From positions 3,043 through 67,042 of the forward strand of contig JAJTYH010000003.1 of the NCBI GenBank assembly GCA_021463465.1: DNA of 64,000 nucleotides, given 5' to 3'. Position 1 is the first letter of the stretch; every line of letters begins with the position of its first letter. The notes below the pieces were generated by a model. It made no database searches, was not told the origin of the DNA, and worked only from the letters and a program-made list of their open reading frames with translations. The position numbers and the translations under genes were made by a program. Positions 2,313-64,000 of the stretch are shown here, piece by piece. Source of the DNA: a bacterium (GTDB taxonomy: Bacteria > Patescibacteriota > Dojkabacteria > SC72).

Positions 2313-2389
2313 TGGTGGACCTGGTGGGATTTGAACCCACTACCCCTTCTATGCCATAGAAGTGCTCTAGCCAAGTGAGCTACAGGCCC
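2313..2389 (-). tRNA. tRNA-Ala (anticodon GGC), CCA encoded
   Basis: The reverse complement folds as a cloverleaf with a G3:U70 acceptor pair, anticodon loop aUGGCau, T-loop TTCAAAT, and 3' CCA. Confidence 0.85.
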
Positions 2390-2407
2390 TAAACTATGTT
2401 GTACTCA

Positions 2408-2480
2408 TGGACTCAGCCGGAGTCGAACCGGCGACCTTCGCAATGCGAATGCGACGTTCTACCAACTGAACTATGAGCCC
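2408..2480 (-). tRNA. tRNA-Ala (anticodon CGC), no encoded CCA
   Basis: Cloverleaf with G3:U70, anticodon stem tcgca/tgcga, loop ttCGCat, T-arm gccgg/ccggc. Confidence 0.8.
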
Positions 2481-2509
2481 AACTTCCGCGATTATACCAC
2501 TGCTAAATA

Positions 2510-14001: not shown

Positions 14002-14504
14002 ATAAGTCCTAAAAATTTTAGAACTCGTGCCTGGCCTCTTCTTACGAAGAAGTCAGGACTAAATTCATAAAGAGCAAAAGAGTGTTTGCACACTCAAAAC
14101 TGAATAGAAATATACCTACCTAAAAATATCAAAGCTTTTGATTTATTAGTACTTCTAGGCTGAACACATTACTGTGCTTACACCAGAAGCCTATCAACGT
14201 GGTCATCTTCCACGAATCTTCCGCTAGGTCAAGCCTAGCAAGCAAATTTCATCTTAGGACGAGCTTCGCACTTATATGCTTTCAGTGCTTATCTCTTAGC
14301 GACTTAGCTACCCTGCGATGCTCTTGGTAGAACAGCAGGTGTACTAGAGGTCACCTCGCCCCGATCCTTTCGTACTAGGGGCCACCTCCCTCAAATTTGC
14401 AACGCCCGCATCGGATAGAGACCGACCTGGCTCACGCCGGTCTGAACCCAGCTCACGTACCGCTTTAATGGACGAACAGTCCAACCCTTGGGTGCTTGTC
14501 CACA

Positions 14505-14536
<32 letters not shown>

Positions 14537-15107
14537 GAACGGTGCCGTCAATATGAACTATCGGGCACCACCAGCCTGTTATCCCCGGGGTAACTTATCT
14601 CCGTTAAACAATAGCGATTCCACATTCTGCTAAAGGGTCACTTAGACCTGCTTTCGCAACTGCTCGGGGTGTCCCCCTCACAGTAAAGCATCCTTATGCC
14701 TATGCACTCTTCATCCGATTTCCATCCGGATTGAGGATACCTTAGTGCTCTTGCGATACTCTTTCGCAAGAAACCGCCCCAGTCAAACTGCCTGCCGTGC
14801 ACTGTTCCTTGGCTAGATCATAGCCACAGGTAAGAAATAAAACGTTAAAAGGGTGGTATTACACTTGGCGCCTCCGCTAGACCTGACGATCCAGCTTCAA
14901 AGGCTCCCACCTATACTCTACATCCAAAGTTTTATCCCAATGCAAAGCTGCAGTAAAGCTCCACGGGGTCTTTTTGTCCTTATGCGGGTAGGCCGCATCT
15001 TCACAGCCATTTCAATTTCGCCGGGCACGTTGTCGAGACAGTGAAAGAATCGTTACGCCTTTCATGCAAGCCACTAATTAAGTGGCGAGGTATTACGCTA
15101 CCTTAGG

Positions 15108-15898
15108 CATTCCTGTTACTTATATCTAGAAAAACTAGATGACCTAATTACTTAGGCGGATACATGTTCATGTATCTCACTACATTGCTGTAGTGGTCGG
15201 ACTATATCTTCACATATTACTATGTGTCTAACATTTAGCCTCTGAGGATTCTATCAATTACTATTTTTCTGTCCCACTTTTTACCTTTACCTAACCGATT
15301 TATCTTGTAAGCATAATCAACTAGCTTTAAAAAACCAGTACGATTGAGATGCTTTTTGTAGTACATCAGAGTAACTGCTTCTGAAAAAATTTCAAAAGCT
15401 TCTGACTTTACAATTAACGGATATTTCTTGAAGAAAGGTATGACTTTAGTAAAACATGGAGTAATTCCAGATATTTGATAGGTAAACACATTAGAAGGAT
15501 TACTCTTTCTATGTATAGAACCAGTATCAAACATACTTTGGATTAATTTAAGAATATCTAAACCTTTCTCATGTTGATAAACATAAAAAGCCGGTTCAAT
15601 TCTTAAACCATATTTCACATTATTTCTATTCTTAATATTAAGACAGAAACTACCTTCTCCATCAATAAATCCTGAGATAAACCAATTAATGTAATGCGTA
15701 TTTGCGGGAACTGTATTTGAAAGTCTTTCCTGCTGATTGTCCAAAAGCATAAAATTTTTACTCTTTAAAAAGTATTTATACCGTTTAGGATGTCCCAGCA
15801 TATAGTTAGATTTTATAACGGCCCAATATCTTGTAGCAACACACTTAATTTCTTTGAAATGAATTTCTAAGAAAATTAAGAGTAGATATTTATCTACC
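15108..15898 (-). mobile_element. Group I-type intron inserted in 23S rRNA between ...AACGGU and CCUAAGGUAGCG... (E. coli site ~1917), carrying a homing endonuclease ORF
   Basis: Exon sequence ...GGCUGUAACUAUAACGGU ends at 15899 and resumes CCUAAGGUAGCGUAAUACCUC at 15107. The inserted 791 nt end in G (omega G) and follow an exon U. Confidence 0.7.
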
Positions 15899-15921
15899 AC
15901 CGTTATAGTTACAGCCGCCAT
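15235..15921 (-). CDS. LAGLIDADG homing endonuclease (intron-encoded); functional start probably internal (M41 or M58)
   Basis: The motif NWFISGFIDGEGSFCL is a LAGLIDADG motif. The annotated ATG at 15921 lies in the 23S exon, so the real start is likely downstream. Confidence 0.75.
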   Translation of the reverse strand: MAAVTITVVDKYLLLIFLEIHFKEIKCVATRYWAVIKSNYMLGHPKRYKYFLKSKNFMLLDNQQERLSNTVPANTHYINWFISGFIDGEGSFCLNIKNRNNVKYGLRIEPAFYVYQHEKGLDILKLIQSMFDTGSIHRKSNPSNVFTYQISGITPCFTKVIPFFKKYPLIVKSEAFEIFSEAVTLMYYKKHLNRTGFLKLVDYAYKINRLGKGKKWDRKIVIDRILRG

Positions 15922-18111
15922 TGACCAGGGCTTAAGTCGTCCGCTTCACAGCAGCTAGGACACCGAAGTGTACCTAGGAGCCGATCACAAACTTCCTTAA
16001 CCTTCTGGCATTGGGCAGGCGTCAGCACTTATACATCTTCTTACGAATTTGCAAGCGCCTGTAGTTTTGTTAACTAGTCGTTCTTTCCAATTTCATGCTG
16101 CCATAATCAACACTAGATAAATCTTGTGTTGTATGGCCCTCCTTCTCGCGAACTTACGGAGTTAATTTGCCGAGTTCCTTAACAACGCATCACCCGTACG
16201 CCTTGGTGCATTCACACCAGTCCACCAGTGTCGGTTTGCAGTACGATTGCAAGTAAATTTAGTATCCCCGAAGGGATACAGTTAGAAGTTTTTCCAGGAG
16301 GATTAAATACGACAAATCGGCTTCCCGAAGGTTACCTTTACGTCACAGCTCACATACGTTTACCCGAAGGTAAACACGTCTCCCCGGATTTACCTGAGAA
16401 GACTAGTTCACTGCTTGTGCCCCAATCCTTAAGGGGCCTGCCTTTTCAATCCCCGAACTCCATCACAATACTAGCAGTACAGGAATATTAACCTGTTGCC
16501 CATCGCATACGCCTTTCGGCCTGTGCTTAGGATCGACTAACCCATGGATGACTGACATAGCCATGGAAACCTTAGACATTCGGCGAGCAGAGTTTTCATC
16601 TGCTTTGCGCTACTCATCCCTACATTCTCACTTCTATGCGCTCCAGAAACTACTTACGTGTTCCCTTCACAGCGTTGTCTAACCTGCTAAGGCTAGCATG
16701 CATAGAACGCTCCCCTACCGCCCATATCCGTCGAAACGGAAATGTACTTGTAACTTCGGAATCTACCTTCAGCCCCGTTAAATCTTAGGTGCAAAGTCTC
16801 TTGACTAGTAAGCTTTTACGCACTTTTTAAAGGGTGGCTGCCTCTAAGCCAACCTCCTAGCTGTCTGAGAATCTTTACCGCCTTCTCCACTCAGGTAGAA
16901 TTTAGGGTCCTTATTTGACAATCTGGGCTGTTTCCCTCTTGAGCATAGGAACTTAGCTCCCTAGCTCTAACTGCTGCAATATACATACCGGTATTTGGAG
17001 TTTAACAAGACAAAGTACGATTACTCGCCTTCGATCTTATTAGTGCTCTACCCCCAGTACTTAAATTGCAACGCTAGCCCTAAAGCTATTTCGGGGAGAA
17101 CCAGCTATAACCAGGTTCGTTTGGCATATTACCGCTAACCACGTCTCATCTCATAGATTCGCAAGTCTAATGAGTTCGGTCCTCGATCCTAATTTCTTAG
17201 GACTTCAACCTGGACGAGGCTAGATCACCTGGATTCGGGTCCAGTGCATACGACTCAAATCGCCCTATTCGGACTCGCTTTCGCTTCGGCTCCACCGTTT
17301 CCGGCTTAACCTTGCCGTACACAACTGACTCGCAGGGTCATTCTTCAATAGGCACGCCGTCACGGGATATACCCGCTCCGACTGTTTGTAAGTATATGGT
17401 TTCAGTATCTATTTCACTCCCCTAACAGGGGTTCTTTTCGCCTTTCCCTCTCGGAACTTTGTTCACTATCGGTCGTAGAAAGTGTTTAGCCTTGCCAAGT
17501 GGTCTTGGCAGCTTCCCACAGAATTTCACTTACTCCGTGGTACTTAGGAAAATTAAAAGAAGATGTACTGATTTAATGTACGCAACTGTCATGCTCTACG
17601 GTCTACCTTTCCAGGTATGTTCCAATATCAGTATATTTTGTAACTTCTCAAGAACCTTGCTGTGTTCTTATATAATTCCCTACAACTCCAATGTCGCACG
17701 AACAGCAATTTACGGACTCTCCGCATCAATCATCGCAACGCGAATCATGAATTAGATACTCCTTACACGACATTAGTTTAGGCTTCTCCCTTTTCGCTCG
17801 CCACTACTAAGGGAATAATCCTGTTGGTATTTTTTCCTCCGGTTACTGAGAGGTTTCACTTCACCGGGTGCCTTTCCTAGCAGCTATGAATTCACTGCTG
17901 GATGATCAGACATGACTCTGATCGGGTTACCCCATTCGGAAATCTCCGGGTTCTAATGTTTGTTTGGCAACTCCCCGAAGCATATCGCAGCCTACCACGT
18001 CCTTCTTCAGCTTTCTACGCCAAGGCATTCACCATATACCTGTAGCATCGCTTTATATATTTTTATTAAAATGGTTGTATTATTTCTATTCAGTTTTTAA
18101 AGTGCAAAATC

Positions 18112-35143: not shown

Positions 35144-35217
35144 TGGGGGAGGACGGAATCGAACCGTCGACATCGGCTTTATAAGAACCGCGCTCTAACC
35201 TTCTGAGCTACACCCCC
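35144..35217 (-). tRNA. tRNA-Ile (anticodon TAT), no encoded CCA
   Basis: Cloverleaf with D-arm gctc/gagc, anticodon stem cggtt/agccg, loop ctTATaa and T-arm gacgg/ccgtc. The acceptor stem is gggggtg/ctccccc with one U-U mismatch. Confidence 0.65.
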
Positions 35218-55833: not shown

Positions 55834-56538
55834 TTGTTTTTACCTAAAATGAAAAGCCGGCATTTACAGTTTCTTCTGCTCGGACTATCTGCAGTGACCT
55901 CGGTGATTATGTATTTCAACTTACCGAATCGAATCCCTTCTCACTGGAATTACCTTGGACAAGTTGATGGATTTAGTTCGAAATTAGCTGTATTAGCAGC
56001 ATTTCCCCTCTTAACCCTGTTCATCTACTCACTTTTAATGCTGATTCCTAAATTTGACCCTCTCAATAAAAATATCAAAGAGTTCTCTGTTGAGTTTGAG
56101 AAATTTATAACCGTGATGATGCTCTTCTTTTTAGTAATACAGTACCAGGTTATTCTGTGGGCGGTAGGGATTAAGCTTTCACCTAATACTCTATTCCCTC
56201 TGATTATCTCAATTCTCTTCTACTCTATCGGTGGGCTTTTATCAAAATCAAAACCCAATTGGAGCATTGGTATAAGGACACCCTGGACATTAAGCAGCGA
56301 AAAGGTATGGGAAAAAACACATTCACTTGGCGCCAAGCTCTTTAAACTATCACCTTTAGTTTTGCTACCCACCCTACTCTTTCCTCGTGCCGCCTTCTTT
56401 GTATTAATCGCTTATATACTTCTTATTACAGCGACATTAATAGCTTACTCGTACCTACAATACCAGCAAACTACAAAAGCTAAAGTTATAGAGATGAAAA
56501 CACGGCCTAAAAAACGGAAAAGAGTTAAGCGAAGCTAA
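55834..56538 (+). CDS. SdpI/YhfL-family polytopic membrane protein (DUF1648 N-terminus)
   Basis: The N-terminal IPSHWN...G.VDGF and the motif NWSIGIRTPWTLSSEKVWEKTH match SdpI signatures. Multiple TM helices are present. Confidence 0.6.
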   Translation: MFLPKMKSRHLQFLLLGLSAVTSVIMYFNLPNRIPSHWNYLGQVDGFSSKLAVLAAFPLLTLFIYSLLMLIPKFDPLNKNIKEFSVEFEKFITVMMLFFLVIQYQVILWAVGIKLSPNTLFPLIISILFYSIGGLLSKSKPNWSIGIRTPWTLSSEKVWEKTHSLGAKLFKLSPLVLLPTLLFPRAAFFVLIAYILLITATLIAYSYLQYQQTTKAKVIEMKTRPKKRKRVKRS

Positions 56539-56540
56539 AG

Positions 56541-56693
56541 CCACTTACCATCTTCAAATACTTTCTTACCATCAACGTAAATCTGGCTACCTTTCTTTCT
56601 CATATCTTTAACCTTATCCCCCTTCTTTACTTTAAGTGAGTGATCTACAAAAACTTTAGCAAGTTTAACATTACGCGGATCAGTAAACATAGT
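56541..56693 (-). pseudogene. 51-codon remnant resembling the N-terminus of an M29-family aminopeptidase (AmpS/PepS)
   Basis: The manual translation MFTDPRNVKLAKVFVDHSLKVKKGDKV... follows the AmpS N-terminal pattern x-KLAK-x-V-x-x-SL-x-V-x-x-G-x-x-V. It stops after 51 codons. Confidence 0.3.
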
Positions 56694-56731: not shown

Positions 56732-56760
56732 TTTTCAAAAGAGTTATAGGGTGCTATAAT
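56732..56760 (+). promoter_or_regulatory. Candidate promoter (TTTTCA-17-TGcTATAAT, extended -10)
   Basis: The -35 is at 56732-56737 and the extended -10 at 56752-56760. It faces the 3' end of the giant minus-strand gene. Confidence 0.35.
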
Positions 56761-56766
56761 CTCAAC

Positions 56767-56895
56767 GTTTGAAGCCGCAGGGTTTCATTCTCCTCCCAGG
56801 CGGGAGCCCTTGTTGGGCGACATGGGTTCCCGACCTGGAGTGGTGTGAGTAATGGCTTCTAAGCCAACGACTTATGTCGTCACTCACACCACTTA
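56767..56895 (+). ncRNA. Candidate small structured RNA (unclassified)
   Basis: A ~130 nt GC-rich region contains a 9-bp-closed hairpin (ggtgtgagt...actcacacc, 56842-56890) and internal helices. No ORF is present. It lies between a promoter and the giant gene's stop codon. Confidence 0.25.
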
Positions 56896-56905
56896 CCAAA
56901 TGAAA

Positions 56906-59900
56906 TTATTTCTTTTTTACGATAATCCCCCGATCCACTACTATTTCTTTAGCTTTACGCTTCTTGGTGATTATACTGCTACCACCTTCGTATCTAACTG
57001 CCTTGTATCTTTCATCCATGACTCCAAGTTGATAAGTATCATTTGGCATTACAAATTGATACTGACCCTCTTTGTCTGTAACCCTTTTACCGACATATCT
57101 ATCAAACTTCATCTCTTTCAGAGTTACTGTGACACCCTCTACTGGACTGCCACTCTTTTCAACTACCATTCCAAACGACTGTTTTTTAATAGTTATGTTC
57201 TTAATTAACAACATTGAAGCAGGTAGATACAACAATACAGCGGTGAGATTAAGTGGGCTTGGGAATTTAAAGTAGGTATAGGCACCTAGGGCTAAACCAC
57301 CAAAAAATAGCGTTATATGGAAGATCTTTACGAGGATTGACGCAGAGCTCAAAAACTGTGCAAACACTTTTGAAATAGGAGAGAGAGCCTTTGGATCCAT
57401 CGGTACTACAATATTAAACATACTTTTACGCATAAAATTCACCAACTCTCCGTGGTAAACAGGCTCAAGAGGATAATCCACATGACCAGGCACAATCTTT
57501 GATGGATAAGTGTAGCCTGGTTTAACGACTAAGACCTTATACTTTCCTGGAGGGAGGCTGGCCCCAAATGTTCCAAATGCACTAGTTACATCTGTCCAAA
57601 CTAATCGCTCGCTTGTATTATAAATCCTCACTACAGCACGATTAATTGGCTTTTTGCTCACTGCATCATAAACCAAACCGTAAGGTCTACTTTTTTTAAT
57701 AAAACCGAAGAAGGAAAGTATGCTTACAAGTAATTGAATAAGGAAGTATGGAATATTTGTAAAGCCACCAGCAAATACTGCTATTCCAACAGAAACAGTT
57801 GTAGCAGTAGCGGCTGAAGCAACTACACTTAACTGAGGTTCTGACAGTTTTCCAACAGGTGTAGCATCAATAATTTTCGAAACTTTCTTCGCAGCAACAA
57901 TGGTAGCCTTAGGCGCCTTAACCAATACCGCATCTGCAACCTTTTTAACAGTTGGATTATTGATGCCTTTTACTAGCGACTCTGTAGGAATAACAATATC
58001 TTCCTCAGTCAGTTCTTCCTCAGTTGGAGTAACCTGATTTCCCTCTGTAGGCTCACTAACAGGTGACTCAACTTCAACAATCTCACCCATACCACCAGTT
58101 CCACTCAAGCCAGAAGCTACCCAGTAATCGATATTGCCAATTTTTTCTTTATGAACAACAACATCTTCACCTTCAATCTTTTTTGTCTGTGGGAACACAC
58201 CTTCAAAAATCACTCCTCCCTCACAATTACTATTAACGTCCGCAAGTGTAAGACTCCCTGGACACAGCCTGAATCTAGTTGTTTCACCAGCGGGTGTATA
58301 AAGCGTGAAGTTACCCGATAAACCCTGTTGCTGTGTAATCTTAAATACTGCCTTATTCTCCAACTTACTTGAATCCGCCCTTACGCTGCTCCAGTCTTTA
58401 TCCGAATCAAATAAGACTGGTAGATCAGCAATCAATAAATCTCCTTTAGTGACTTTCAATTCTTTTTCACCCCTTTGTGCGCCTTCAAACTGAGCTACAT
58501 TCACCTCAGGCAAATCTTTCAATACAACTGTAACACCAGCAGGAGCGCTGAATACCACCGCGTTGGTTTTTACAATAATCTTTGTACCATAAATAGTTTC
58601 TACGTTATTTCCGTTTCGTGCCTTTACCTTGAATTCAAAATCAGATGCAGAAGGCAAACCTTTTATTAAAAAACCATTATTGCCGCCAAACTCTTCATAA
58701 GTACCCCATGAAGCAGTGCTTTTAAGCGTTCCGTCTTCTTTCGAAACAAACTTCCCACTTGCAACCTCAAAAATAGCATATAAAACAAGGCTGTCGTTGC
58801 CTGGGTTTACAAGGCGAATTCGACCCCCTGTTGTTGATTGAGTGTTAAATGTAGGCTCTCCTGGTACCAAAGCATTAGTATGCGCCGTTGCCGCATCAGA
58901 ATATTCAGTTTCAACATTCTGTTGGTTTCTTGATTTCACCAAGAAAGTGTAAAATTTGCCAGGTACAAGCTGGGTCACAGTTACACCACTACTCCCACCC
59001 CACTGTGCATATGTTCCCCAAACAGGTGAATCTACCTGCGCACCAGAAAGGTTAACAAATTTATCCAATCCATCAATTTTAATACTAAAGCTACTTGTAC
59101 TAGACGAATACTGATTATCTAACTTCAATTTTATTGAGTTTGTTGAAAGGTTAGACAAACCTAATGGAACAGGGCGCGGCGCAAGGGTTGTAACTTGAAC
59201 ACCTTCAGTTTCAAACGACACAACTTCATCGCCATTTCGAACATAAACTTTGAAAGTGTAAGTTGCATTTGGAGTCAAACCCGTTACAACAACACCATTA
59301 CTCGACCCGAATTCAGAGTATGTACCCCAAATAGCGCTATCACTTAAGTTACCACCAGACTTAGGAACGTATTTAAGCGAATTTTCTCTAATACTAAACT
59401 GGGTTGCTGGAGGATTACCACCATTACTCACCTTTATCCTTACTGAGGTATCAGATACAGCTTCAAGAATTGGAAGGTCAAGAGGTGCTGCATGGGTGTA
59501 CTTTTGACCAGTTAGCGATACATCTGTTTCTACATTATCACTATTTTTTGCCTTAACTGCGAATGTATATTGAGCATTAGCAAACAAACCTACCACATTT
59601 ACCCCTGTTGTTTGACCAAAGTCACTATATGAGCTCCAGGTAGGGGTAGTTCCTAAACTTCCATTGCCTGGATTCACATACAAGCCAGAAACTGTTTCAA
59701 GTAAGGCATAACTTGTTGTTGTATTATTACTTCCAGTATTAATCTTAACGTTAATTGAGGTATTGGAGACCGCACTCACATTAGGGGCATCTGGAATGTT
59801 AGCAAATGTCGTTATAGTAGCTGTGCTAGTGAAATCGCCATTACCATTAGAATCGTAAGCAGCTACTTTACGCGTGTATGAGGTGTTAGCAGTCAGACCG

Positions 59901-62900
59901 AATTCATCACAGTATGTGATATTGCTACTTGCGCACTGTGCAACCTGTACTCCGCTCTCGTCAAAAACCCTAAAGCCTACCTCGTTGGTTAAATCCTCAG
60001 TAAATTTCCATCTGATACTTGTACTGCTTAGCACCTCTGGGGTACCCATAGTTGGAGCGCCAAGTGCCTCGTATTCGCCTGAAGCATTGCTATATGAAGT
60101 TTCTTCACCGTCGTTATTTCTAGCTTTAACCCTAAATGCATAACCAACACCAGGTTCTAAGCCAGAAGCTATAAACCCACTATCTCCACCGTAATCAGCA
60201 AACTGATCCCAAGCTTCATTCTGTACAAAGTTGCCAGATGAATTAACATAATCCCCACTATTAACTTCTTGTACAGCATATGTAACAGAAGCAGGGTTAC
60301 CGTTACTATCAAGTGTTACCCTAGCCGTTGCAGAGCTAATCCTCTGAACATCTGGAACGCCTGGGGTATTTGCAAATGTATATTTCGTAGCCGAACTTCC
60401 AAATACAGTGACCACCTGATCTCCATTTCTTGCCATAACTTGGAAGGTATAGCCATTATTAGGGGATAATCCTGATACACCTAAACCGTTAGACCCTCCC
60501 CACTGAGCATATGTAGCCCAATCTGCGCTGCCCTGTGCCACTCCCGTTTGATGGTTTATATAATTACTACCACCTACCTGAACTGAAAACTCTGTATTAG
60601 AAGGGTTATTGTTAACATCCAAAACAAGCTTTAAAACAGTAGTAGATAGTGCGCTTAAAGTCGGGGCATTTGGTGTTTTAGATCGTGTATAAATAGAAGA
60701 TCCTGTTGATAATGCCCCCTCTATATTATTTATGTTCCTAGCTTTTACCTTATATGTGTACTGAGTATTACTACTTAACCCTATCGAGTCTACCCCGCTA
60801 GTACCGCCCCACTGTGCGTAGGTCCCCCACTGTACCTCCGAAACCAACTGGCCATTAGCTGGATTAAGATATTGATCAGTTACATCCTCAAATACCGCAA
60901 ACTCAGTATTAGAAGGATTTGTTTGAGGGTTAATTTTCACATTAATAACTGTTGATGAAAGCGAGGAAACGGAAGGTGCTACACTATCAGCAGCTAAAGT
61001 AACAAATTGACCTTGTGAGGATTGCGAAGTTTCAACATTAGATTCATTTCTTGCTATAACTGTGGCGAAATACGACGTATTAGGAGTTAAACTTGTAATA
61101 GTAATACCCTCCCACTCTGCTTCGGTTTTCCATGTCGCAGGTGAAGTTACAAGACTTCCGTTCCCATCAACGTAATAAGTATCATCAATTAGTATTTTGA
61201 ACTTAGTATAAGTAGGATTGCCACCTGGATTAATCCCAATTGTTGCCGTAGTTTGGCCAGCAGTAATTGAAGGGGCATCAGGTGTAACCGACAGCGTATA
61301 TAAAGTAGAACTTGAGCTTTTAGAACTCTCAGTTCCTCCATTGTATGCACTTAGTTTTCGAGTGTACGAAGTATTTACATTCAAACTGTTTTCAACACAC
61401 TCGTAAGTATCTCCACTAACTAAATTAGCAGTACAATTAGCAATAAAAGAATCCCCTCCATCATAAAGTTTAAAACCCGTTTCATTAAGACCATTGTTAT
61501 TAAACCTCCAGGAGATGGTATCTCCATCTACAGCTACAGGGGTTAAAATATTAGGGGTTAAAAGATTAGTATAAGTTGAGATACTGCTGCTGTACGCTGT
61601 TTCAGTATTTTCAGAATTCCTAGCTTTTACCTTAAAAGTATACTGTAATCCCTCATCAAGATTATTTACCTGAAAGTTAGTGCCCCAGGAACTTGCTGTA
61701 TACCAGAACGGCGCAACTTGGAGTTGATTCGTTGTACCGTTAACGTATTTGCTACTAGACTCCTCAAAAAATGCATATTCTGTTGAGGTTGGATTACTAT
61801 TTAAATCTGAATTTAAGGCAATCTTTACATAGTTGCTACTAACTTCGGCAAAGGAAGGTACCAATGGAGTATTCGCGGCTGAATATTTATTTGAGGTTGA
61901 AGAATACGCTGTCTCAATACCGTCACCATTTCTTGTTTTTACTCTGAACGTATATTGAGTATTAGGAATTAAACCTGAAATTATTTCAGCGCCATCACTG
62001 TCCCATGATCCACTCTCATTGCAACCGGCAGTAGTACAATCAAACATTACAGCAGACTGACCTTGTCCAAGATTACTTGTACCACTTGTGAGAACTTCAA
62101 TAGATGTAGGTCCTACAGATCCATAAGAGATTGAAGGTACTGATGCTAAAGTATAAATGGTCACATTAGACGAGTATGCTGTCTCTACACCATCACCATT
62201 CCTACCTTTTACTCTAAATGTATATTGCGTATTGTCGGACAAAGATGTGGCAGTCGCATTCATTGACGTTTGCCATGCATTTAACCCTGTGTCACAACTG
62301 GTTCCTGTACAATCAAAATATATACCTGAGCTTCCTTCAGTTTCGTTTGATACCCCACTGGCTGTAAGCGGAATTTCAGATGTCGTTATTGTACCTAATG
62401 CAATCGAAGGGGTCTGGATAAGTGTATACCTACTTATACTTGATGAGTACGTTTGGCTATCGCCATTTTCATTGTATGCTTTTAACTGCCTCTGATACGA
62501 GACATTAGGAGAAAGTCCCGTTTCATCACAGTATGCAATATCAGCGCCGACACAAGTAGCTTTCAGATTGCCTAACATATCAAACACTTTTACTCCATCC
62601 TCATTATCTGCATTATCAGTAAACGTCCACCTGATTGAAGTTGTAGAAAGGGCCGAAGGTGCTGTTGCAGTAGGGGTATCAGGGACATTTAGTTCTTCTG
62701 ATCCAACTGTAAAAGATACAGAGTCCCCTGAATTATCTTTTCGTTGTGCGTATATAACCTGCAAGTAAGGGGGTAAGCTTGATTGAGAGTCAGTTATTGC
62801 GCTACAGCTATGTGTATGCGATGCAGAGGCTGTTGTTGTGACTGTTCCGTAGCTTGTAACCTTATTACTACCTGAATCAACAGATGTTGATAGATTTAAA

Positions 62901-64000
62901 GCGTGTGTATGAGTAGCGGCCCCACCCGTACCACCTGGCGTTGCATTTCCTCTAGGGAATTTACCATCAAGGGCTGTATATCTTTGCCAGCCAAGCGGAG
63001 GGAGTTGATTTACAATAATGATCGAACCTGAAGGCAATTGACCTGCACTATCTTTAGAAGCAAAGAGTAGGTCTAGGTATGGAGGCAATGTGCTTGCATT
63101 TTCAAGGCTACCTGATGGAATTGAATGGAGGTGAGCGAGCTTCACCTCGCTGCTTGAAAGCTGATAAAAGTTCGCTGCAGGTGAGGTTGACCCTGTGTAT
63201 CCAGATCCATAGTAAATAGCGATTCTTCCGTTACCTCCAGTAGCGGTATCAGCAGCACTACCTCCTGTAGCCGTTACTAGACTACTACCCAAAGTAACTG
63301 AATCACCTTTTATAAGTATTCCTCCACCAGCGCCACCTCCTCCATCTCCTCCATAAGCATTTGGGGCTGCAGTTCCAGCGCCACCATTACTTGTTACGCT
63401 TGCGCCAGAGTTAAGGCTTACCGTTGACCCATAAATCATTATAATTCCTCCGCCTCTCCCACCTGCACCACCAAATTGACCTGTACCATTACCACTTTCA
63501 CCGCCGCCACCACTACCACCACCAGATCCAAGGAATATACTACTAAGATTTGCTGGACCAACACTACCACCACCACCACCACCTCCCCCATAATCAGTAT
63601 TTCCTAAATCCTGGCCGGCACCACTACTTCCCGAAGCACCATTACCATCGGAATTCGTTGTACCATTTGACCCTGAGTTTGCACCAGTGTCGCCACCATA
63701 CCCACCTTGTCCAGCAGTCCCATATCCTCCTCCTCCTCCATCACCACCATACCCATTTTCTGAGGCTCCTGTACCAAAAGCAGCACCTCCTCCTCCACCA
63801 GTACCTCCTGACGATGAACCTGATTTAGAAGGATATGCTGTCGTATCAGAACTGCCACCACCACCTCCTCCACAAGTTCCTGAGGCATTGTTTTCTATAC
63901 CTCTATCACCACCCTGTCCTCCCCAATTAGAAGGATTACAAAGCGATCCGCCTCCCCTACCACCTCCGAAACCATCATCCCCTTCAACTGCACCTTCATG
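56906..64000 (-). CDS. Giant surface protein, partial (N-terminus beyond window end): Gly-rich region, tail-collar-like motifs, ~14 FN3/Ig-like repeats, C-terminal TM helices plus CarboxypepD_reg-like domains
   Basis: The frame is open from 64000 to the stop at 56906-56908 (>2364 codons). HTH and PPY motifs are present (GGAATHTHALNL, SHTHSCS, LPPYLDLLF, LPPYLQVIYAQRK). Repeats of ~95 aa end ...YTF.VKARN...ETAYSS..YT. Near the C-terminus there are 2-4 TM helices and two transthyretin-like domains. Confidence 0.85.
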   Translation of the reverse strand, partial: HEGAVEGDDGFGGGRGGGSLCNPSNWGGQGGDRGIENNASGTCGGGGGGSSDTTAYPSKSGSSSGGTGGGGGAAFGTGASENGYGGDGGGGGYGTAGQGGYGGDTGANSGSNGTTNSDGNGASGSSGAGQDLGNTDYGGGGGGGGSVGPANLSSIFLGSGGGSGGGGESGNGTGQFGGAGGRGGGIIMIYGSTVSLNSGASVTSNGGAGTAAPNAYGGDGGGGAGGGILIKGDSVTLGSSLVTATGGSAADTATGGNGRIAIYYGSGYTGSTSPAANFYQLSSSEVKLAHLHSIPSGSLENASTLPPYLDLLFASKDSAGQLPSGSIIIVNQLPPLGWQRYTALDGKFPRGNATPGGTGGAATHTHALNLSTSVDSGSNKVTSYGTVTTTASASHTHSCSAITDSQSSLPPYLQVIYAQRKDNSGDSVSFTVGSEELNVPDTPTATAPSALSTTSIRWTFTDNADNEDGVKVFDMLGNLKATCVGADIAYCDETGLSPNVSYQRQLKAYNENGDSQTYSSSISRYTLIQTPSIALGTITTSEIPLTASGVSNETEGSSGIYFDCTGTSCDTGLNAWQTSMNATATSLSDNTQYTFRVKGRNGDGVETAYSSNVTIYTLASVPSISYGSVGPTSIEVLTSGTSNLGQGQSAVMFDCTTAGCNESGSWDSDGAEIISGLIPNTQYTFRVKTRNGDGIETAYSSTSNKYSAANTPLVPSFAEVSSNYVKIALNSDLNSNPTSTEYAFFEESSSKYVNGTTNQLQVAPFWYTASSWGTNFQVNNLDEGLQYTFKVKARNSENTETAYSSSISTYTNLLTPNILTPVAVDGDTISWRFNNNGLNETGFKLYDGGDSFIANCTANLVSGDTYECVENSLNVNTSYTRKLSAYNGGTESSKSSSSTLYTLSVTPDAPSITAGQTTATIGINPGGNPTYTKFKILIDDTYYVDGNGSLVTSPATWKTEAEWEGITITSLTPNTSYFATVIARNESNVETSQSSQGQFVTLAADSVAPSVSSLSSTVINVKINPQTNPSNTEFAVFEDVTDQYLNPANGQLVSEVQWGTYAQWGGTSGVDSIGLSSNTQYTYKVKARNINNIEGALSTGSSIYTRSKTPNAPTLSALSTTVLKLVLDVNNNPSNTEFSVQVGGSNYINHQTGVAQGSADWATYAQWGGSNGLGVSGLSPNNGYTFQVMARNGDQVVTVFGSSATKYTFANTPGVPDVQRISSATARVTLDSNGNPASVTYAVQEVNSGDYVNSSGNFVQNEAWDQFADYGGDSGFIASGLEPGVGYAFRVKARNNDGEETSYSNASGEYEALGAPTMGTPEVLSSTSIRWKFTEDLTNEVGFRVFDESGVQVAQCASSNITYCDEFGLTANTSYTRKVAAYDSNGNGDFTSTATITTFANIPDAPNVSAVSNTSINVKINTGSNNTTTSYALLETVSGLYVNPGNGSLGTTPTWSSYSDFGQTTGVNVVGLFANAQYTFAVKAKNSDNVETDVSLTGQKYTHAAPLDLPILEAVSDTSVRIKVSNGGNPPATQFSIRENSLKYVPKSGGNLSDSAIWGTYSEFGSSNGVVVTGLTPNATYTFKVYVRNGDEVVSFETEGVQVTTLAPRPVPLGLSNLSTNSIKLKLDNQYSSSTSSFSIKIDGLDKFVNLSGAQVDSPVWGTYAQWGGSSGVTVTQLVPGKFYTFLVKSRNQQNVETEYSDAATAHTNALVPGEPTFNTQSTTGGRIRLVNPGNDSLVLYAIFEVASGKFVSKEDGTLKSTASWGTYEEFGGNNGFLIKGLPSASDFEFKVKARNGNNVETIYGTKIIVKTNAVVFSAPAGVTVVLKDLPEVNVAQFEGAQRGEKELKVTKGDLLIADLPVLFDSDKDWSSVRADSSKLENKAVFKITQQQGLSGNFTLYTPAGETTRFRLCPGSLTLADVNSNCEGGVIFEGVFPQTKKIEGEDVVVHKEKIGNIDYWVASGLSGTGGMGEIVEVESPVSEPTEGNQVTPTEEELTEEDIVIPTESLVKGINNPTVKKVADAVLVKAPKATIVAAKKVSKIIDATPVGKLSEPQLSVVASAATATTVSVGIAVFAGGFTNIPYFLIQLLVSILSFFGFIKKSRPYGLVYDAVSKKPINRAVVRIYNTSERLVWTDVTSAFGTFGASLPPGKYKVLVVKPGYTYPSKIVPGHVDYPLEPVYHGELVNFMRKSMFNIVVPMDPKALSPISKVFAQFLSSASILVKIFHITLFFGGLALGAYTYFKFPSPLNLTAVLLYLPASMLLIKNITIKKQSFGMVVEKSGSPVEGVTVTLKEMKFDRYVGKRVTDKEGQYQFVMPNDTYQLGVMDERYKAVRYEGGSSIITKKRKAKEIVVDRGIIVKKK

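What the first reader, a model, noticed from the sequence alone, without database searches (positions are those of the whole stretch)
56906..64000. Giant (>2360 aa, partial) surface protein: Gly-rich N-region, tail-collar motifs, ~14 FN3-like repeats, C-terminal TM anchors
This is a single open frame of 7.1 kb that continues past the window end. The N-proximal part is a Gly/Ser/Tyr-rich low-complexity region of about 200 aa. It is followed by segments with HTH and PPY motifs (GGAATHTHALNL, SHTHSCS, LPPYLDLLF, LPPYLQVIYAQRK) characteristic of phage tail-collar (MdpB-like) domains.

Then come ~14 tandem ~95-aa repeats ending ...YTF.VKARN...ETAYSS..YT, which are FN3/Ig-like. The C-terminal part carries 2-4 TM helices interleaved with two transthyretin-like (CarboxypepD_reg-type) domains.

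The protein is therefore anchored by its C-terminus and projects a very long repeat stalk tipped by receptor-binding-like collar domains. This is a plausible host-attachment adhesin.
Basis: partly seen in the sequence, partly recalled or inferred. Interest (0 to 1): 0.55.

Follow-up and report, generated by a model that had tools for sequence, protein, structure and literature searches.

The report
Giant surface fibril with phage-fibre-like head
This is a real 3,474-residue cell-surface protein gene of an ultra-small (CPR-type) bacterium; its "tail-collar motifs" belong to an unannotated three-unit histidine-motif domain related to phage tail-fibre tips, carried on a stalk of 14 FN3 repeats and held in the membrane by its C-terminus, so it is probably an attachment fibre.

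Summary
A minus-strand frame (56906..64000) stays open for 2,364 codons. It is the exact C-terminal part of a 3,474-aa database protein, P0004. P0004 adds a probable signal peptide, DUF2341 and two LamG domains.

All 14 FN3-like repeats and both CarboxypepD_reg domains between hydrophobic segments are confirmed.

The "collar" call is only partly right. Pfam Collar does not match, and comparison with MdpB profiles is marginal. The motifs belong to a ~105-aa unit with two HxH motifs and a terminal PPY strand, found in more than 1,000 protein clusters.

- In cellular proteins, mostly CPR bacteria plus some DPANN archaea, the unit comes in threes or sixes within one chain.
- In viral contigs it is the C-terminal end of tail-fibre or tailspike proteins, as one gene or three tandem genes.
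- AlphaFold folds a three-unit protein compactly (pTM 0.83). I read this as a single-chain pseudo-trimer.

The "low-complexity" Gly-rich region is a conserved ~430-aa cassette inserted inside unit 2.

Best reading: a C-terminally anchored fibrillar adhesin with a phage-receptor-binding-like head. This function is inferred, not shown.

The parts
56906..64000 (-). Partial giant ORF: 2,364 codons plus TAA stop. It equals residues 1111-3474 of the 3,474-aa protein P0004.
   Evidence: exact substring; P of an open frame about 1e-70; WS6 ortholog P0012 is 40% identical over 2,089 aa.
63179..64000 (-). Window residues 1-274: the C-terminal two-thirds of a conserved ~430-aa Gly-rich cassette (P0004 960-1384). 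The cassette is inserted inside HxH unit 2.
   Evidence: 11 homologues, either as an insert or as a free-standing C-terminal module; about 70 invariant columns, mostly Gly; no Pfam hit; AF2 pLDDT 62, pTM 0.70, beta rungs confident, centre below 50; weak Foldseek hits to phage tailspikes.
63053..63178 (-). Window residues 275-316: the resumed C-terminal piece of HxH unit 2, containing AHLHS and the LPPYLDLLF strand.
   Evidence: matches unit model positions 35-106. In one search, when joined to P0004 633-709 it classifies as a position-2 unit (99.9 bits against 74 and 79).
62738..63052 (-). Window residues 317-421: the complete HxH unit 3 (LPPLGW, LDGKFPRG, GGTGG, THTH, variable loop, SHTH, LPPYLQVIYAQRK).
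   Evidence: 1,048 cluster representatives at E <= 1e-3; E 3.5e-40 to the unit HMM; position-3 class, 128 bits; invariant columns.
58565..62683 (-). Fourteen FN3-like repeats (window residues 440-1812) in three subtypes: short, Cys-pair, and ~103-aa with a W..Y..WGG insert. This is the stalk.
   Evidence: fn3 2e-41; 14 domains, 14-43% pairwise identity; no DNA tandem repeat; homologues carry 5-20 repeats.
58082..58564 (-). Window residues 1813-1973: a membrane-proximal beta-rich domain of unknown family, with a Cys pair, conserved in the WS6 ortholog.
   Evidence: no Pfam hit; no PHROG hit; conserved in P0012.
57854..58081 (-). Window residues 1974-2049: an acidic, then Lys/Val-rich, linker before the anchor.
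   Evidence: variable in length and sequence among 12 homologues.
56909..57853 (-). Window residues 2050-2364: the C-terminal anchor module. Hydrophobic segments: A 57761-57832, B 57701-57754, C 57269-57337, D 57203-57253. CarboxypepD_reg 1 lies at about 57491-57679 and CarboxypepD_reg 2 at about 56996-57175.
   Evidence: PF13620, 1e-17; hydropathy; the module sits at the extreme C-terminus of 12 of 150 family members; alignment and charge distribution.

Best explanation
**What it is.** The gene encodes a 3,474-aa cell-surface fibril of a Patescibacteria (CPR) bacterium, probably related to WS6/Dojkabacteria.

**Inferred organisation, N to C**
1. A Sec signal peptide, probably cleaved just before the DUF2341 domain.
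2. A head of about 1,500 aa. Its core is three ~105-aa HxH units that pack as a single-chain pseudo-trimer. This is the same unit that phages place at the C-terminal end of trimeric tail fibres.
   - Each unit supplies two HxH motifs, so three units could build two six-histidine metal sites, as in T4 gp12 and gp37.
   - The linker between units 1 and 2 carries a second DUF2341-like region and a LamG domain.
   - The variable loop of unit 2 carries another LamG domain plus the ~430-aa Gly-rich cassette.
3. A stalk of 14 FN3 domains, roughly 50 nm if extended.
4. A membrane-proximal domain of unknown family.
5. An anchor of 3-4 membrane segments with two transthyretin-like domains.

**Proposed mechanism.** The anchor holds the fibril in the cytoplasmic membrane. 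The stalk pushes the head beyond the cell wall or S-layer. The head's variable loops and inserted cassettes bind a glycan or protein on another cell, most plausibly the host of this presumed episymbiont.

**Shown versus inferred.** Shown: domain content, the conserved architecture, the rule of three for the units, viral tail-fibre homologues, and a compact AF2 model. Inferred: signal cleavage, membrane topology, metal binding, three-fold geometry and the adhesin function.
For: **The gene is real and conserved**
- The window ORF is an exact C-terminal substring of P0004.
- The WS6 ortholog P0012 (KKR06470.1) is colinear at 40% identity over 2,089 aa.

**The architecture recurs**
- Twelve family members share signal, DUF2341, three HxH units, 5-20 FN3 repeats and the same C-terminal anchor.

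**The HxH unit comes in threes**
- Of the 150 best hits, 112 proteins have 3 pieces and 15 have 6. Counts of 4, 7 or 8 include split units.
- At least 22 cases have unit 2 interrupted by an insertion of 144-648 aa at the same model position.
- Held-out units classify to their own position in 142 of 150 cases, and P0004's joined halves classify as position 2.
- Twelve near-invariant histidines form six HxH motifs.
- AF2 on the three-unit protein P0043 gives pLDDT 85 and pTM 0.83, indicating one compact body.

**Phage link**
- Twelve IMG/VR contigs carry the unit.
- There the unit ends exactly at the protein's C-terminus, in either a single gene or three tandem genes.
- These proteins match tail-fibre, tailspike and minor-tail PHROGs, and one set lies two genes downstream of a tape-measure gene.
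- Foldseek against BFVD hits phiAsp2 Pas29 and Pas28 (E 5e-15 and 3e-14, TMq 0.59) and a 'tail collar domain' protein (probability 0.93).
- The motif order matches T4 gp12, including HKH at residues 445-447 and the terminal NISLNYIIK strand.

**Signal peptide and setting**
- In 8 of the 10 printed N-termini a small residue sits at -3 and -1 right before W[FY][DN]..W.YR.
- Neighbouring genes are housekeeping genes, not prophage genes.

**Literature**
- Very large FN3, ConA or DUF2341 surface proteins of Patescibacteria are regarded as candidate host-interaction factors (PMC11809585, PMC13059738).
- DUF2341 has been linked to adhesin-like proteins (PMC4858521).
Against: - There is no experimental or expression evidence.
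- I could not read the model coordinates, so the three-fold packing and histidine clustering are inferred from pTM, the rule of three and analogy.
- Foldseek against the PDB found nothing for the three-unit model. This is expected if the solved relatives are intertwined trimers, but it is also what a wrong model would give.
- Homology to Collar/MdpB proteins is not established.
- Signal-peptide cleavage and topology rest on hand rules only. The positive-inside rule suggests the two transthyretin-like domains are cytoplasmic, which is unusual for that fold.
- The host-attachment role is extrapolated from lifestyle. The taxon itself is inferred from the WS6 ortholog, the intron in the 23S rRNA gene and the distribution of homologues, not from a classified marker gene.
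Confidence: 0.55

Rival explanations
1. The protein is a doubly anchored envelope protein. The N-terminal hydrophobic segment is an uncleaved signal anchor, so both ends sit in the membrane. The protein would then form a long loop or a structural scaffold of the cell envelope, such as an S-layer support or spacer, rather than a projecting adhesin.
For: - The N-terminal h-region is long (about 22 aa) and has a long charged n-region.
- No signal-peptide predictor was available.
- The gene is a stand-alone gene among housekeeping genes.
Against: - Small residues at -3 and -1 lie directly before the first folded domain in the 8 homologue N-termini where I identified a site, out of 10 printed.
- The head contains lectin-like LamG domains and phage receptor-binding-type modules.
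- Stalk length varies from 5 to 20 repeats among homologues, as expected for adhesin stalks.
Confidence: 0.15
2. The head is mainly an enzyme rather than a binder. The Gly-rich cassette would be a tailspike-like beta-helix depolymerase that cuts host capsule or cell-wall polysaccharide. The fibril would then be a tethered, contact-dependent degrading tool. This could coexist with adhesion.
For: - Foldseek of the cassette model gives phage tailspikes and depolymerases in 8 of the top 11 PDB hits: 4y9v E 6e-4, 4ru4, 4ru5, 9k4a, 7vul and 7w1c.
- The cassette is a mobile module, also found free-standing behind a signal peptide.
Against: - TM-scores are only 0.13-0.17 with rmsd around 10 A, and the model's central 150 residues are below pLDDT 50.
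- No catalytic family is detected in Pfam or NCBIfam.
- The WS6 ortholog carries a different cassette, Gly_rich_2, at the same site.
Confidence: 0.15
3. It is a genuine phage or tailocin tail-fibre gene within a prophage, not a cellular surface protein.
For: The HxH unit is found in viral tail-fibre proteins. There are weak PHROG 'tail protein' hits.
Against: - The protein has an N-terminal signal sequence, a 14-FN3 stalk and a multi-pass C-terminal membrane anchor.
- No phage genes lie in the 7 kb downstream, and none flank the WS6 ortholog.
- In viruses the unit is C-terminal and single per chain, unlike here.
Confidence: 0.03
4. It is a pseudogene or an assembly artefact.
For: The gene is very long and a Gly-rich stretch is prone to sequencing error. 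The window shows only part of it.
Against: - There are 2,364 codons without a stop (P about 1e-70).
- An identical 3,474-aa product is predicted independently in the database, held by NCBI and Logan.
- The ortholog is colinear from the HxH units to the last residue.
Confidence: 0.02

Closest known systems
T4 gp12 short tail fibre C-terminus (Pfam Collar PF07484 plus S_tail_recep_bd PF14928) and MdpB-type 'microcystin-dependent / phage tail collar' proteins
   Same: - The motif order is the same: hydrophobic strand, P.GW, a basic R/K-G motif, G..GG, HxH, and a terminal strand (PPY..VIY against N.SLNYIIK or QPYL.LNFII) that ends the protein in viral versions.
- The setting at the tail-fibre tip is the same.
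- The variable, function-bearing region lies between the collar strands. This last point is from my memory of the Pfam description.
   Different: - The Pfam Collar HMM does not match.
- The ~31-aa segment QLL..ALFSLLGTTYGGDG.TTFALP, which is the core of the Collar model, is absent.
- Each unit has two HxH motifs, against one in gp12.
- Three units are fused in one chain instead of three separate chains.
- hhalign support is marginal.
HxH iron- or zinc-binding segments of trimeric phage fibres (T4 gp37 tip, R-pyocin fibres, P2 spike apex)
   Same: HxH motifs are conserved and occur in sets of three, which in phage fibres form six-histidine octahedral metal sites on the three-fold axis (PMC11705849, PMC6116203).
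   Different: Here the three motif sets would come from one polypeptide. Metal binding was not tested. There is no sequence match to solved fibres.
Fibrillar adhesins of Gram-positive bacteria, and giant FN3/LamG/DUF2341 surface proteins noted in Patescibacteria
   Same: The layout is signal peptide, ligand-binding head, a stalk of repeated Ig/FN3 domains, and a cell anchor. Stalk length varies among homologues. Such proteins are proposed to mediate host interaction (PMC11809585, PMC13059738).
   Different: - The anchor is a conserved multi-pass module with two CarboxypepD_reg domains, not LPXTG/sortase or a single transmembrane helix.
- The head is a phage-fibre-like three-unit domain with nested cassettes.
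'Split-domain' ligand-binding inserts of RTX adhesins (Graham et al. 2024, cited in PMC13059738)
   Same: A binding module is inserted into a loop of a companion domain, so that it projects outward from the fibre.
   Different: The companion domain here is the HxH unit rather than a bacterial Ig-like domain. The inserts are Gly-rich cassettes and LamG domains.
Actinoplanes phage phiAsp2 proteins Pas28 and Pas29
   Same: These are the best structural matches to the three-unit model (Foldseek E 3e-14 and 5e-15, TMq 0.58-0.59). This suggests that some phages also carry the single-chain form.
   Different: Sequence identity is only 18-19%, and the sequences could not be retrieved. tblastn against INPHARED found nothing. 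Their function is unannotated.

Membership tests
Pfam Collar (PF07484, phage tail collar domain) | Match to the family HMM at or above the gathering score | tested here: not met
   There was no hit on the whole protein at E <= 1 or on the isolated segment at E <= 10, and none on six viral homologues at E <= 0.1. As a positive control, T4 gp12 gives Collar 7.4e-14.
Pfam Collar / MdpB | Profile-profile similarity to bona fide Collar proteins | tested here: inconclusive
   An alignment of 513 units was compared by hhalign with 106 real PF07484 proteins. The score was 25.7, P 5.6e-4, probability 30%, colinear over unit positions 7-105 against MdpB 5-164. Column shuffles scored 8.5-13.6, but 1 of 20 eight-column block shuffles scored at least as high. 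A2 against gp12 aligned only 20 columns, at the start of the Collar domain.
Phage tail-fibre C-terminal HxH unit (family defined here, not in Pfam) | The ~105-aa unit with P.GW, FPRG, GGTGG, two HxH motifs and a terminal PPY strand; occurs in tail-fibre proteins | tested here: met
   Window residues 317-421 score E 3.5e-40 to the unit HMM. There are 1,048 representatives at E <= 1e-3. Viral members are tail-fibre, tailspike or minor-tail proteins by PHROGs and by position next to a tape-measure gene.
Trimeric or pseudo-trimeric HxH metal-binding fibre fold | Three units or chains packed around a three-fold axis, with six-histidine metal sites | not testable with these tools
fn3 (PF00041) | HMM match above the gathering score; tandem ~90-105-aa beta-sandwich repeats | tested here: met
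   fn3 scores 2e-41, 140 bits against a cutoff of 25. The self-built HMM finds 14 domains.
CarboxypepD_reg (PF13620, transthyretin-like) | HMM match above the gathering score | tested here: met
   The score is 1.1e-17, 64.6 bits against a cutoff of 32.3, in two stretches.
Fibrillar adhesin (architectural class) | Secretion signal, stalk of repeated domains and a cell anchor | tested here: met
   The stalk and anchor are shown. The signal peptide is inferred from the N-terminus of P0004 and homologues.
Fibrillar adhesin (architectural class) | A demonstrated adhesive domain or binding activity | not testable with these tools
   There are only lectin-like LamG domains and phage receptor-binding-like modules.
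Gly_rich_2 (PF21722) | HMM match of the Gly-rich region | tested here: not met
   The window cassette has no Pfam hit. The WS6 ortholog P0012 does carry Gly_rich_2 (E 4.8e-10) at the same insertion site.
Phage tailspike beta-helix (depolymerase-type) | Structural match of the Gly-rich cassette to tailspike beta-helices | tested here: inconclusive
   Foldseek against the PDB gives 4y9v E 6.3e-4 and 4ru4 E 1.9e-3 (probability 0.99), but TMq is 0.13-0.17. The model has mean pLDDT 62 with an unresolved centre.

The most novel reading that the evidence does not exclude
Ultra-small symbionts (CPR bacteria and DPANN archaea) carry a cellular 'tail fibre'. In this reading, the C-terminal knob that phages build from three chains, or from three tandem genes, has been fused into a single-chain pseudo-trimer with two six-histidine metal sites. 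One loop of its middle unit serves as a swap-in site for alternative binding or enzymatic cassettes: the Gly-rich tailspike-like module, Gly_rich_2 and LamG. The whole is mounted on an FN3 stalk and held by a previously undescribed multi-pass anchor carrying two transthyretin-like domains. This would be a phage-style host-recognition device used by cells to find their hosts.
Probability: 0.35. Interest if true: 0.75.

Novelty: new variant of a known kind. Interest (0 to 1): 0.58.

Why it matters
How episymbiotic Patescibacteria recognise and bind their hosts is described as largely unknown (PMC12206443). Giant surface proteins are repeatedly named as candidates, but without any mechanistic handle (PMC11809585, PMC13059738).

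This analysis gives such a protein a concrete and testable anatomy:
- a widespread, un-annotated three-unit HxH domain (more than 1,000 protein clusters) that links cellular surface fibrils to phage receptor-binding fibres;
- a defined loop in which variable cassettes are displayed;
- a conserved anchor module.

If the single-chain pseudo-trimer is confirmed, three consequences follow. It would be a clear example of the same fold being made as a homotrimer, a three-gene heterotrimer and a fused chain. It would provide a marker for candidate host-specificity determinants in CPR and DPANN genomes. It might also offer a monomeric scaffold for engineering phage-like binders.

Tried and rejected
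**Sequence searches that failed or were uninformative**
- The search for homologous proteins with the first 440 aa was swamped by glycine words and returned 3 hits.
- The same tool with the HxH segment alone returned nothing, although the exhaustive HMMER search found 1,048 hits.
- The look-up of encoding contigs had no record for P0004.
- PDB sequence searches with the segments and with profiles A1 and A2 gave either nothing or only FN3-type hits.
- tblastn of P0043 against INPHARED phages found no match even at E <= 10.

**Structure searches**
- Foldseek of the three-unit model against the PDB gave nothing below E = 1.

**Genomic context**
- The metagenome scan for upstream context found only 46-51% identical relatives, not the source genome.
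- I looked for a functional operon. Genes flanking the window gene and the WS6 ortholog are unrelated housekeeping genes.
- A conserved neighbourhood around a shorter family member turned out to be recG-thrS-pheS-pheT, which is core-genome synteny and not a pilus or secretion operon.

**Other ideas rejected**
- The viral three-gene sets do not map onto the cellular unit positions 1, 2 and 3. Their scores are similar against all three position-specific HMMs, so a simple gene-fusion origin is not shown.
- Repeat-number instability by slippage is unlikely, because the repeats are only 14-43% identical and there is no DNA tandem repeat.
Full report
**1. The observation**

The open frame lies on the minus strand, 56906..64000. 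It has 2,364 sense codons followed by TAA and is open to the window edge. At the local base composition, the chance of no stop over that length is about 1e-70.

The window is a bacterial chromosome with almost all genes on the minus strand. It holds an rRNA operon and eight tRNA genes. The genes downstream of the giant ORF are ordinary: an SdpI-family membrane protein, an RRM RNA-binding protein, APH, a serine hydrolase, NUDIX, Ldh_2, a racemase, AP endonuclease 2 and a UvrD/PD-(D/E)XK helicase.

An exhaustive HMMER search returned a 3,474-aa protein, P0004. Its last 2,364 residues are identical to the window translation. So the gene is real, and about 1,110 codons lie beyond the window.

**2. 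Full architecture**

Domains were mapped with Pfam on the window fragment and on P0004, hydropathy and local HMMs. Coordinates below are P0004 residues unless stated.

- An N-terminal hydrophobic segment at about residues 24-50.
- DUF2341 at residues 98-163.
- HxH unit 1 at 155-261.
- A second DUF2341-like stretch and a first Laminin_G_3 domain.
- The first part of HxH unit 2 at 633-709.
- A second Laminin_G_3 domain.
- The ~430-aa Gly-rich cassette at 960-1384.
- The rest of unit 2 at about 1385-1426.
- HxH unit 3 at 1427-1535.
- Fourteen FN3-like repeats.
- An unassigned beta-rich domain of about 160 aa.
- A linker.
- A 315-aa anchor with four hydrophobic segments and two CarboxypepD_reg domains.

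NCBIfam finds nothing. The 14 repeats are confirmed exactly. They are 14-43% identical to one another, fall into three subtypes, and leave no DNA-level tandem repeat.

**3. The 'collar' motifs**

Pfam Collar does not match the protein, the isolated segment at E <= 10, or six viral homologues. It does match T4 gp12 at 7e-14.

The segment is nevertheless a strongly conserved domain. There are 1,048 cluster representatives at E <= 1e-3 and 110 at E <= 1e-30. Iterating within the 150 best hits defines a ~105-aa unit with the pattern P.GW..[FY]..LD..FPRG....GGTGG..THTH, a variable stretch of about 25 residues, then HTHS......LPPY..VI[FY].

*The unit obeys a rule of three.*
- 112 proteins have three pieces and 15 have six. 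The counts of 4, 7 or 8 include units that are split.
- In at least 22 cases a unit, usually unit 2, is interrupted at the same model position (about 88) by an insertion of 144-648 aa.
- Position-specific HMMs trained on half of the contiguous triplets classify 142 of 150 held-out units to their own position.
- They assign P0004's pieces to positions 1, 2 (the two halves joined) and 3.

The window therefore contains only the tail of unit 2 and all of unit 3. The Gly-rich region is not an N-terminal low-complexity tract but part of the insert within unit 2.

P0004 has exactly six H.H and three PPY motifs in its 3,474 residues, all of them inside the units. Twelve histidines are nearly invariant across 50 family members.

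**4. Link to phages**

A scan of IMG/VR found 12 viral contigs carrying the unit.

- In these contigs the unit ends precisely at the protein's C-terminus.
- It occurs either in one protein of 430-640 aa, or in three consecutive genes of 180-220 aa (L041, L044, L048, L050, L051).
- The L045 protein matches tailspike, tail-fibre and minor-tail PHROGs and sits beside a virion structural protein.
- The L041 triplet matches tail-fibre and tail-protein PHROGs and lies two genes downstream of a tape-measure gene.
- The same single-unit or three-gene patterns appear in Elusimicrobia, Omnitrophota, Saccharibacteria and Nanoarchaeota genome contigs. These are possibly prophages.

AlphaFold2 on a three-unit protein (P0043, 328 aa, 50-sequence alignment) gives pLDDT 85 and pTM 0.83, with the same strand pattern in each unit. 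A pTM that high indicates one compact body rather than three independent beads.

Foldseek results for this model:
- Against the PDB there is nothing below E = 1. That is expected if the solved relatives are intertwined trimers stored as single chains.
- Against BFVD it hits phiAsp2 Pas29 and Pas28 (E 5e-15 and 3e-14, TMq 0.59).
- The third BFVD hit is a 'phage tail collar domain containing protein' (E 6e-3, probability 0.93).

Taken together, I infer that the unit assembles in threes. Phages appear to make the assembly as a homotrimer or a three-gene heterotrimer, and cells make it as a fused single chain.

By analogy with T4 gp37, pyocin fibres and gp12, the six HxH motifs would form two six-histidine metal sites (PMC11705849, PMC6116203; the gp12 HKH at 445-447 is seen). 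Neither the geometry nor metal binding was testable here.

**5. Relation to Collar/MdpB proteins**

I recalled an MdpB-like sequence from memory and used it only as bait. It retrieved real proteins annotated PF07484, 'microcystin-dependent protein' or 'phage tail protein', at about 70% identity.

hhalign of 513 units against 106 of these proteins gave a colinear alignment (unit 7-105 against MdpB 5-164), with score 25.7, P 5.6e-4 and probability 30%. In that alignment MdpB has an extra ~31-aa segment (QLL..ALFSLLGTTYGGDG.TTFALP). That segment makes up most of the Pfam Collar model, which would explain why the HMM fails.

The controls temper this result. Column shuffles scored 8.5-13.6 and a reversed template scored 14.3. 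However, eight-column block shuffles scored 15.6-26.3, and one of 20 beat the real score. The signal is therefore mainly shared short motifs, and the colinearity is not statistically secure.

The motif order can also be read directly in gp12: IPVGAIMMW..LP..W, then PDMRGLFVRG, G..GG, HKH, and NISLNYIIK at the C-terminus.

Verdict: the domain works like, and is plausibly a shortened relative of, collar-type fibre tips. Membership in PF07484 was tested and not met.

**6. The Gly-rich cassette**

The ~430-aa module spans P0004 960-1384, and window residues 1-274 are its last two-thirds. Locally it has 11 homologues.

- Seven are inserts in unit 2: P0042, P0066, P0075, P0148, L005, L010 and L035.
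- Two are free-standing C-terminal modules behind a signal peptide: P0001 and P0002.
- About 70 columns are invariant, mostly glycines, plus a Cys pair.

The module has no Pfam match. The WS6 ortholog carries a different glycine-rich domain, Pfam Gly_rich_2 (E 4.8e-10), at the same insertion site. The site therefore behaves as a cassette-display loop.

AF2 with only 7 sequences gives pLDDT 62 and pTM 0.70. The beta parts at cassette-model residues 1-150 and 330-431 are confident, while the central 150 residues are unresolved.

Foldseek places phage tailspikes and capsule depolymerases at the top of the PDB list (4y9v E 6e-4, 4ru4, 4ru5, 9k4a, 7vul, 7w1c). TM-scores are only 0.13-0.17, so this is a hint and not an assignment.

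**7. Ends of the protein**

*N-terminus.* Family members share a basic n-region, a hydrophobic core of about 22 aa, and then small residues at -3 and -1 (VES, AQS, VVA, GVA, VSS, TEA, VSG, TAS). These lie immediately before the conserved W[FY][DN]..W.YR start of DUF2341. I infer a cleavable Sec signal peptide, but no predictor was available.

*C-terminus.* The 315-aa anchor module is conserved at the extreme C-terminus of 12 of the 150 best family members. All twelve share the signal, DUF2341, three-unit, FN3 (5-20 repeats) and anchor layout.

Net charge in the flanking stretches is as follows:
- -2.6 in the 15 residues before segment A;
- 0 in the 4-residue A-B turn;
- +3.3 after segment B;
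- +2.6 before segment C;
- +0.8 in the C-D loop;
- +2.5 after segment D.

The positive-inside rule therefore favours three membrane passes, with A and B acting as one, and both transthyretin-like domains in the cytoplasm. A four-pass model puts them outside but violates the rule. This remains unresolved.

**8. Organism and distribution**

The closest full-length relative is KKR06470.1 of candidate division WS6 (Dojkabacteria) GW2011_GWF2_39_15. It is 40% identical over 2,089 aa and is annotated only as 'hypothetical' or 'FN3 domain-containing'.

A scan of GTDB species-representative genomes with one unit pattern found 38 loci. Most are in Saccharibacteria, Dojkabacteria/WS6 and other Patescibacteria. 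There are also hits in Aenigmatarchaeota, Nanoarchaeota and Pacearchaeota, and single contigs of Omnitrophota, Elusimicrobia and Anaerolineales.

The window's 23S rRNA gene carries a ~1-kb insertion encoding a LAGLIDADG endonuclease. From my own knowledge, this is a CPR hallmark. I did not classify the rRNA, so the taxon is an inference.

**9. Function**

No operon partner was found. The function is therefore read from the anatomy alone: a secreted head of lectin-like and phage receptor-binding-like modules, a stalk of variable length, and a membrane anchor. That is the layout of a fibrillar adhesin.

Published work already treats giant FN3, ConA or DUF2341 surface proteins of Patescibacteria as candidate host-interaction factors (PMC11809585, PMC13059738) and links DUF2341 to adhesin-like proteins (PMC4858521). 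The mechanism of host recognition is stated to be largely unknown (PMC12206443).

I put about 0.55 on 'C-terminally anchored attachment fibril with a phage-fibre-like head'. The rivals are a doubly anchored structural protein, a tethered depolymerase, a true phage gene and a pseudogene, scored 0.15, 0.15, 0.03 and 0.02.

**10. Novelty and score**

The class, a giant CPR surface adhesin candidate, is known. New here, within the limits of my searches, are:
- recognition of the three-unit HxH domain and its rule of three;
- its phage tail-fibre relatives;
- the nested cassette site in unit 2;
- the conserved anchor module.

I rate this a new variant of a known kind, with interest 0.58.

Noticed in passing
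window 14125..18057 (-), ORF 15235..15921 (-): The 23S rRNA match spans 3,933 nt against a 2,925-nt model, so it carries an insertion of about 1 kb. The 228-aa ORF inside it is a LAGLIDADG_1 homing endonuclease (E 7.6e-20). This is probably an intron of the kind described in CPR rRNA genes.
   Followed up: partly
window 56760..56905 (-): The 146 nt immediately after the giant gene's stop codon fold into a very stable multi-branch structure (-63.1 kcal/mol, z = -5.3, 0 of 200 shuffles as stable). There is no Rfam hit at E <= 1, no canonical terminator, and no similar sequence in any fetched locus. It may be an unannotated structured RNA or a complex terminator.
   Followed up: partly
window ~56535..56690 (-): A ~51-codon ORF (MFTDPRNVKLAKVFVDHSLKVKKGDKV...GSQIYVDGKKVFEDGKWL) looks, from memory only, like the fused N- and C-terminal ends of an M29/AmpS-type aminopeptidase. 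If so, it is a gene remnant with a large internal deletion.
   Followed up: no
window 35144..35217 (-); 2313..2481 (-): There is a tRNA-Ile with anticodon UAU, and two adjacent tRNA-Ala genes (GGC and CGC) in addition to the tRNA-Ala(UGC) in the rRNA spacer.
   Followed up: no
L041 7694..9727; also L044, L048, L050, L051 (IMG/VR contigs); L024 9249..11484 (Nanoarchaeota MAG): Three consecutive small genes (about 180-220 aa in the viral contigs) each end in one HxH unit. In L041 they lie two genes downstream of a tape-measure gene. This looks like a three-gene heterotrimeric fibre tip. The three genes do not map onto the cellular unit positions 1, 2 and 3.
   Followed up: partly
L036 8204..16117 (WS6 GW2011_GWF2_39_15, protein P0012 residues 345-560): The ortholog carries Pfam Gly_rich_2 (E 4.8e-10) at the same insertion point in unit 2 where the window protein carries LamG plus an unrelated Gly-rich cassette. 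Cassettes are evidently swapped at a fixed loop.
   Followed up: partly
L004, L005, L010, L014, L022, L028 (Patescibacteria genome contigs): A ~1,265-aa family member with the same Gly-rich cassette sits in a conserved block: recG, a small ORF, the HxH protein, then thrS, pheS and pheT. It is therefore a stably inherited core-genome gene in these lineages. The neighbours are housekeeping genes.
   Followed up: yes
BFVD entries Q6J802 and Q6J803 (Actinoplanes phage phiAsp2 Pas29 and Pas28): These are the best structural matches to the three-unit model (E about 1e-14, TMq 0.59). They suggest that some phages also encode the single-chain three-unit form. The sequences could not be retrieved with these tools.
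   Followed up: no
P0001 and P0002 (620-734 aa): These are free-standing secreted proteins in which the Gly-rich cassette is the C-terminal domain. It follows a Cys-rich N-terminal region that contains a VPDADADGW motif. Their function is unknown and there is no Pfam match on P0002.
   Followed up: partly
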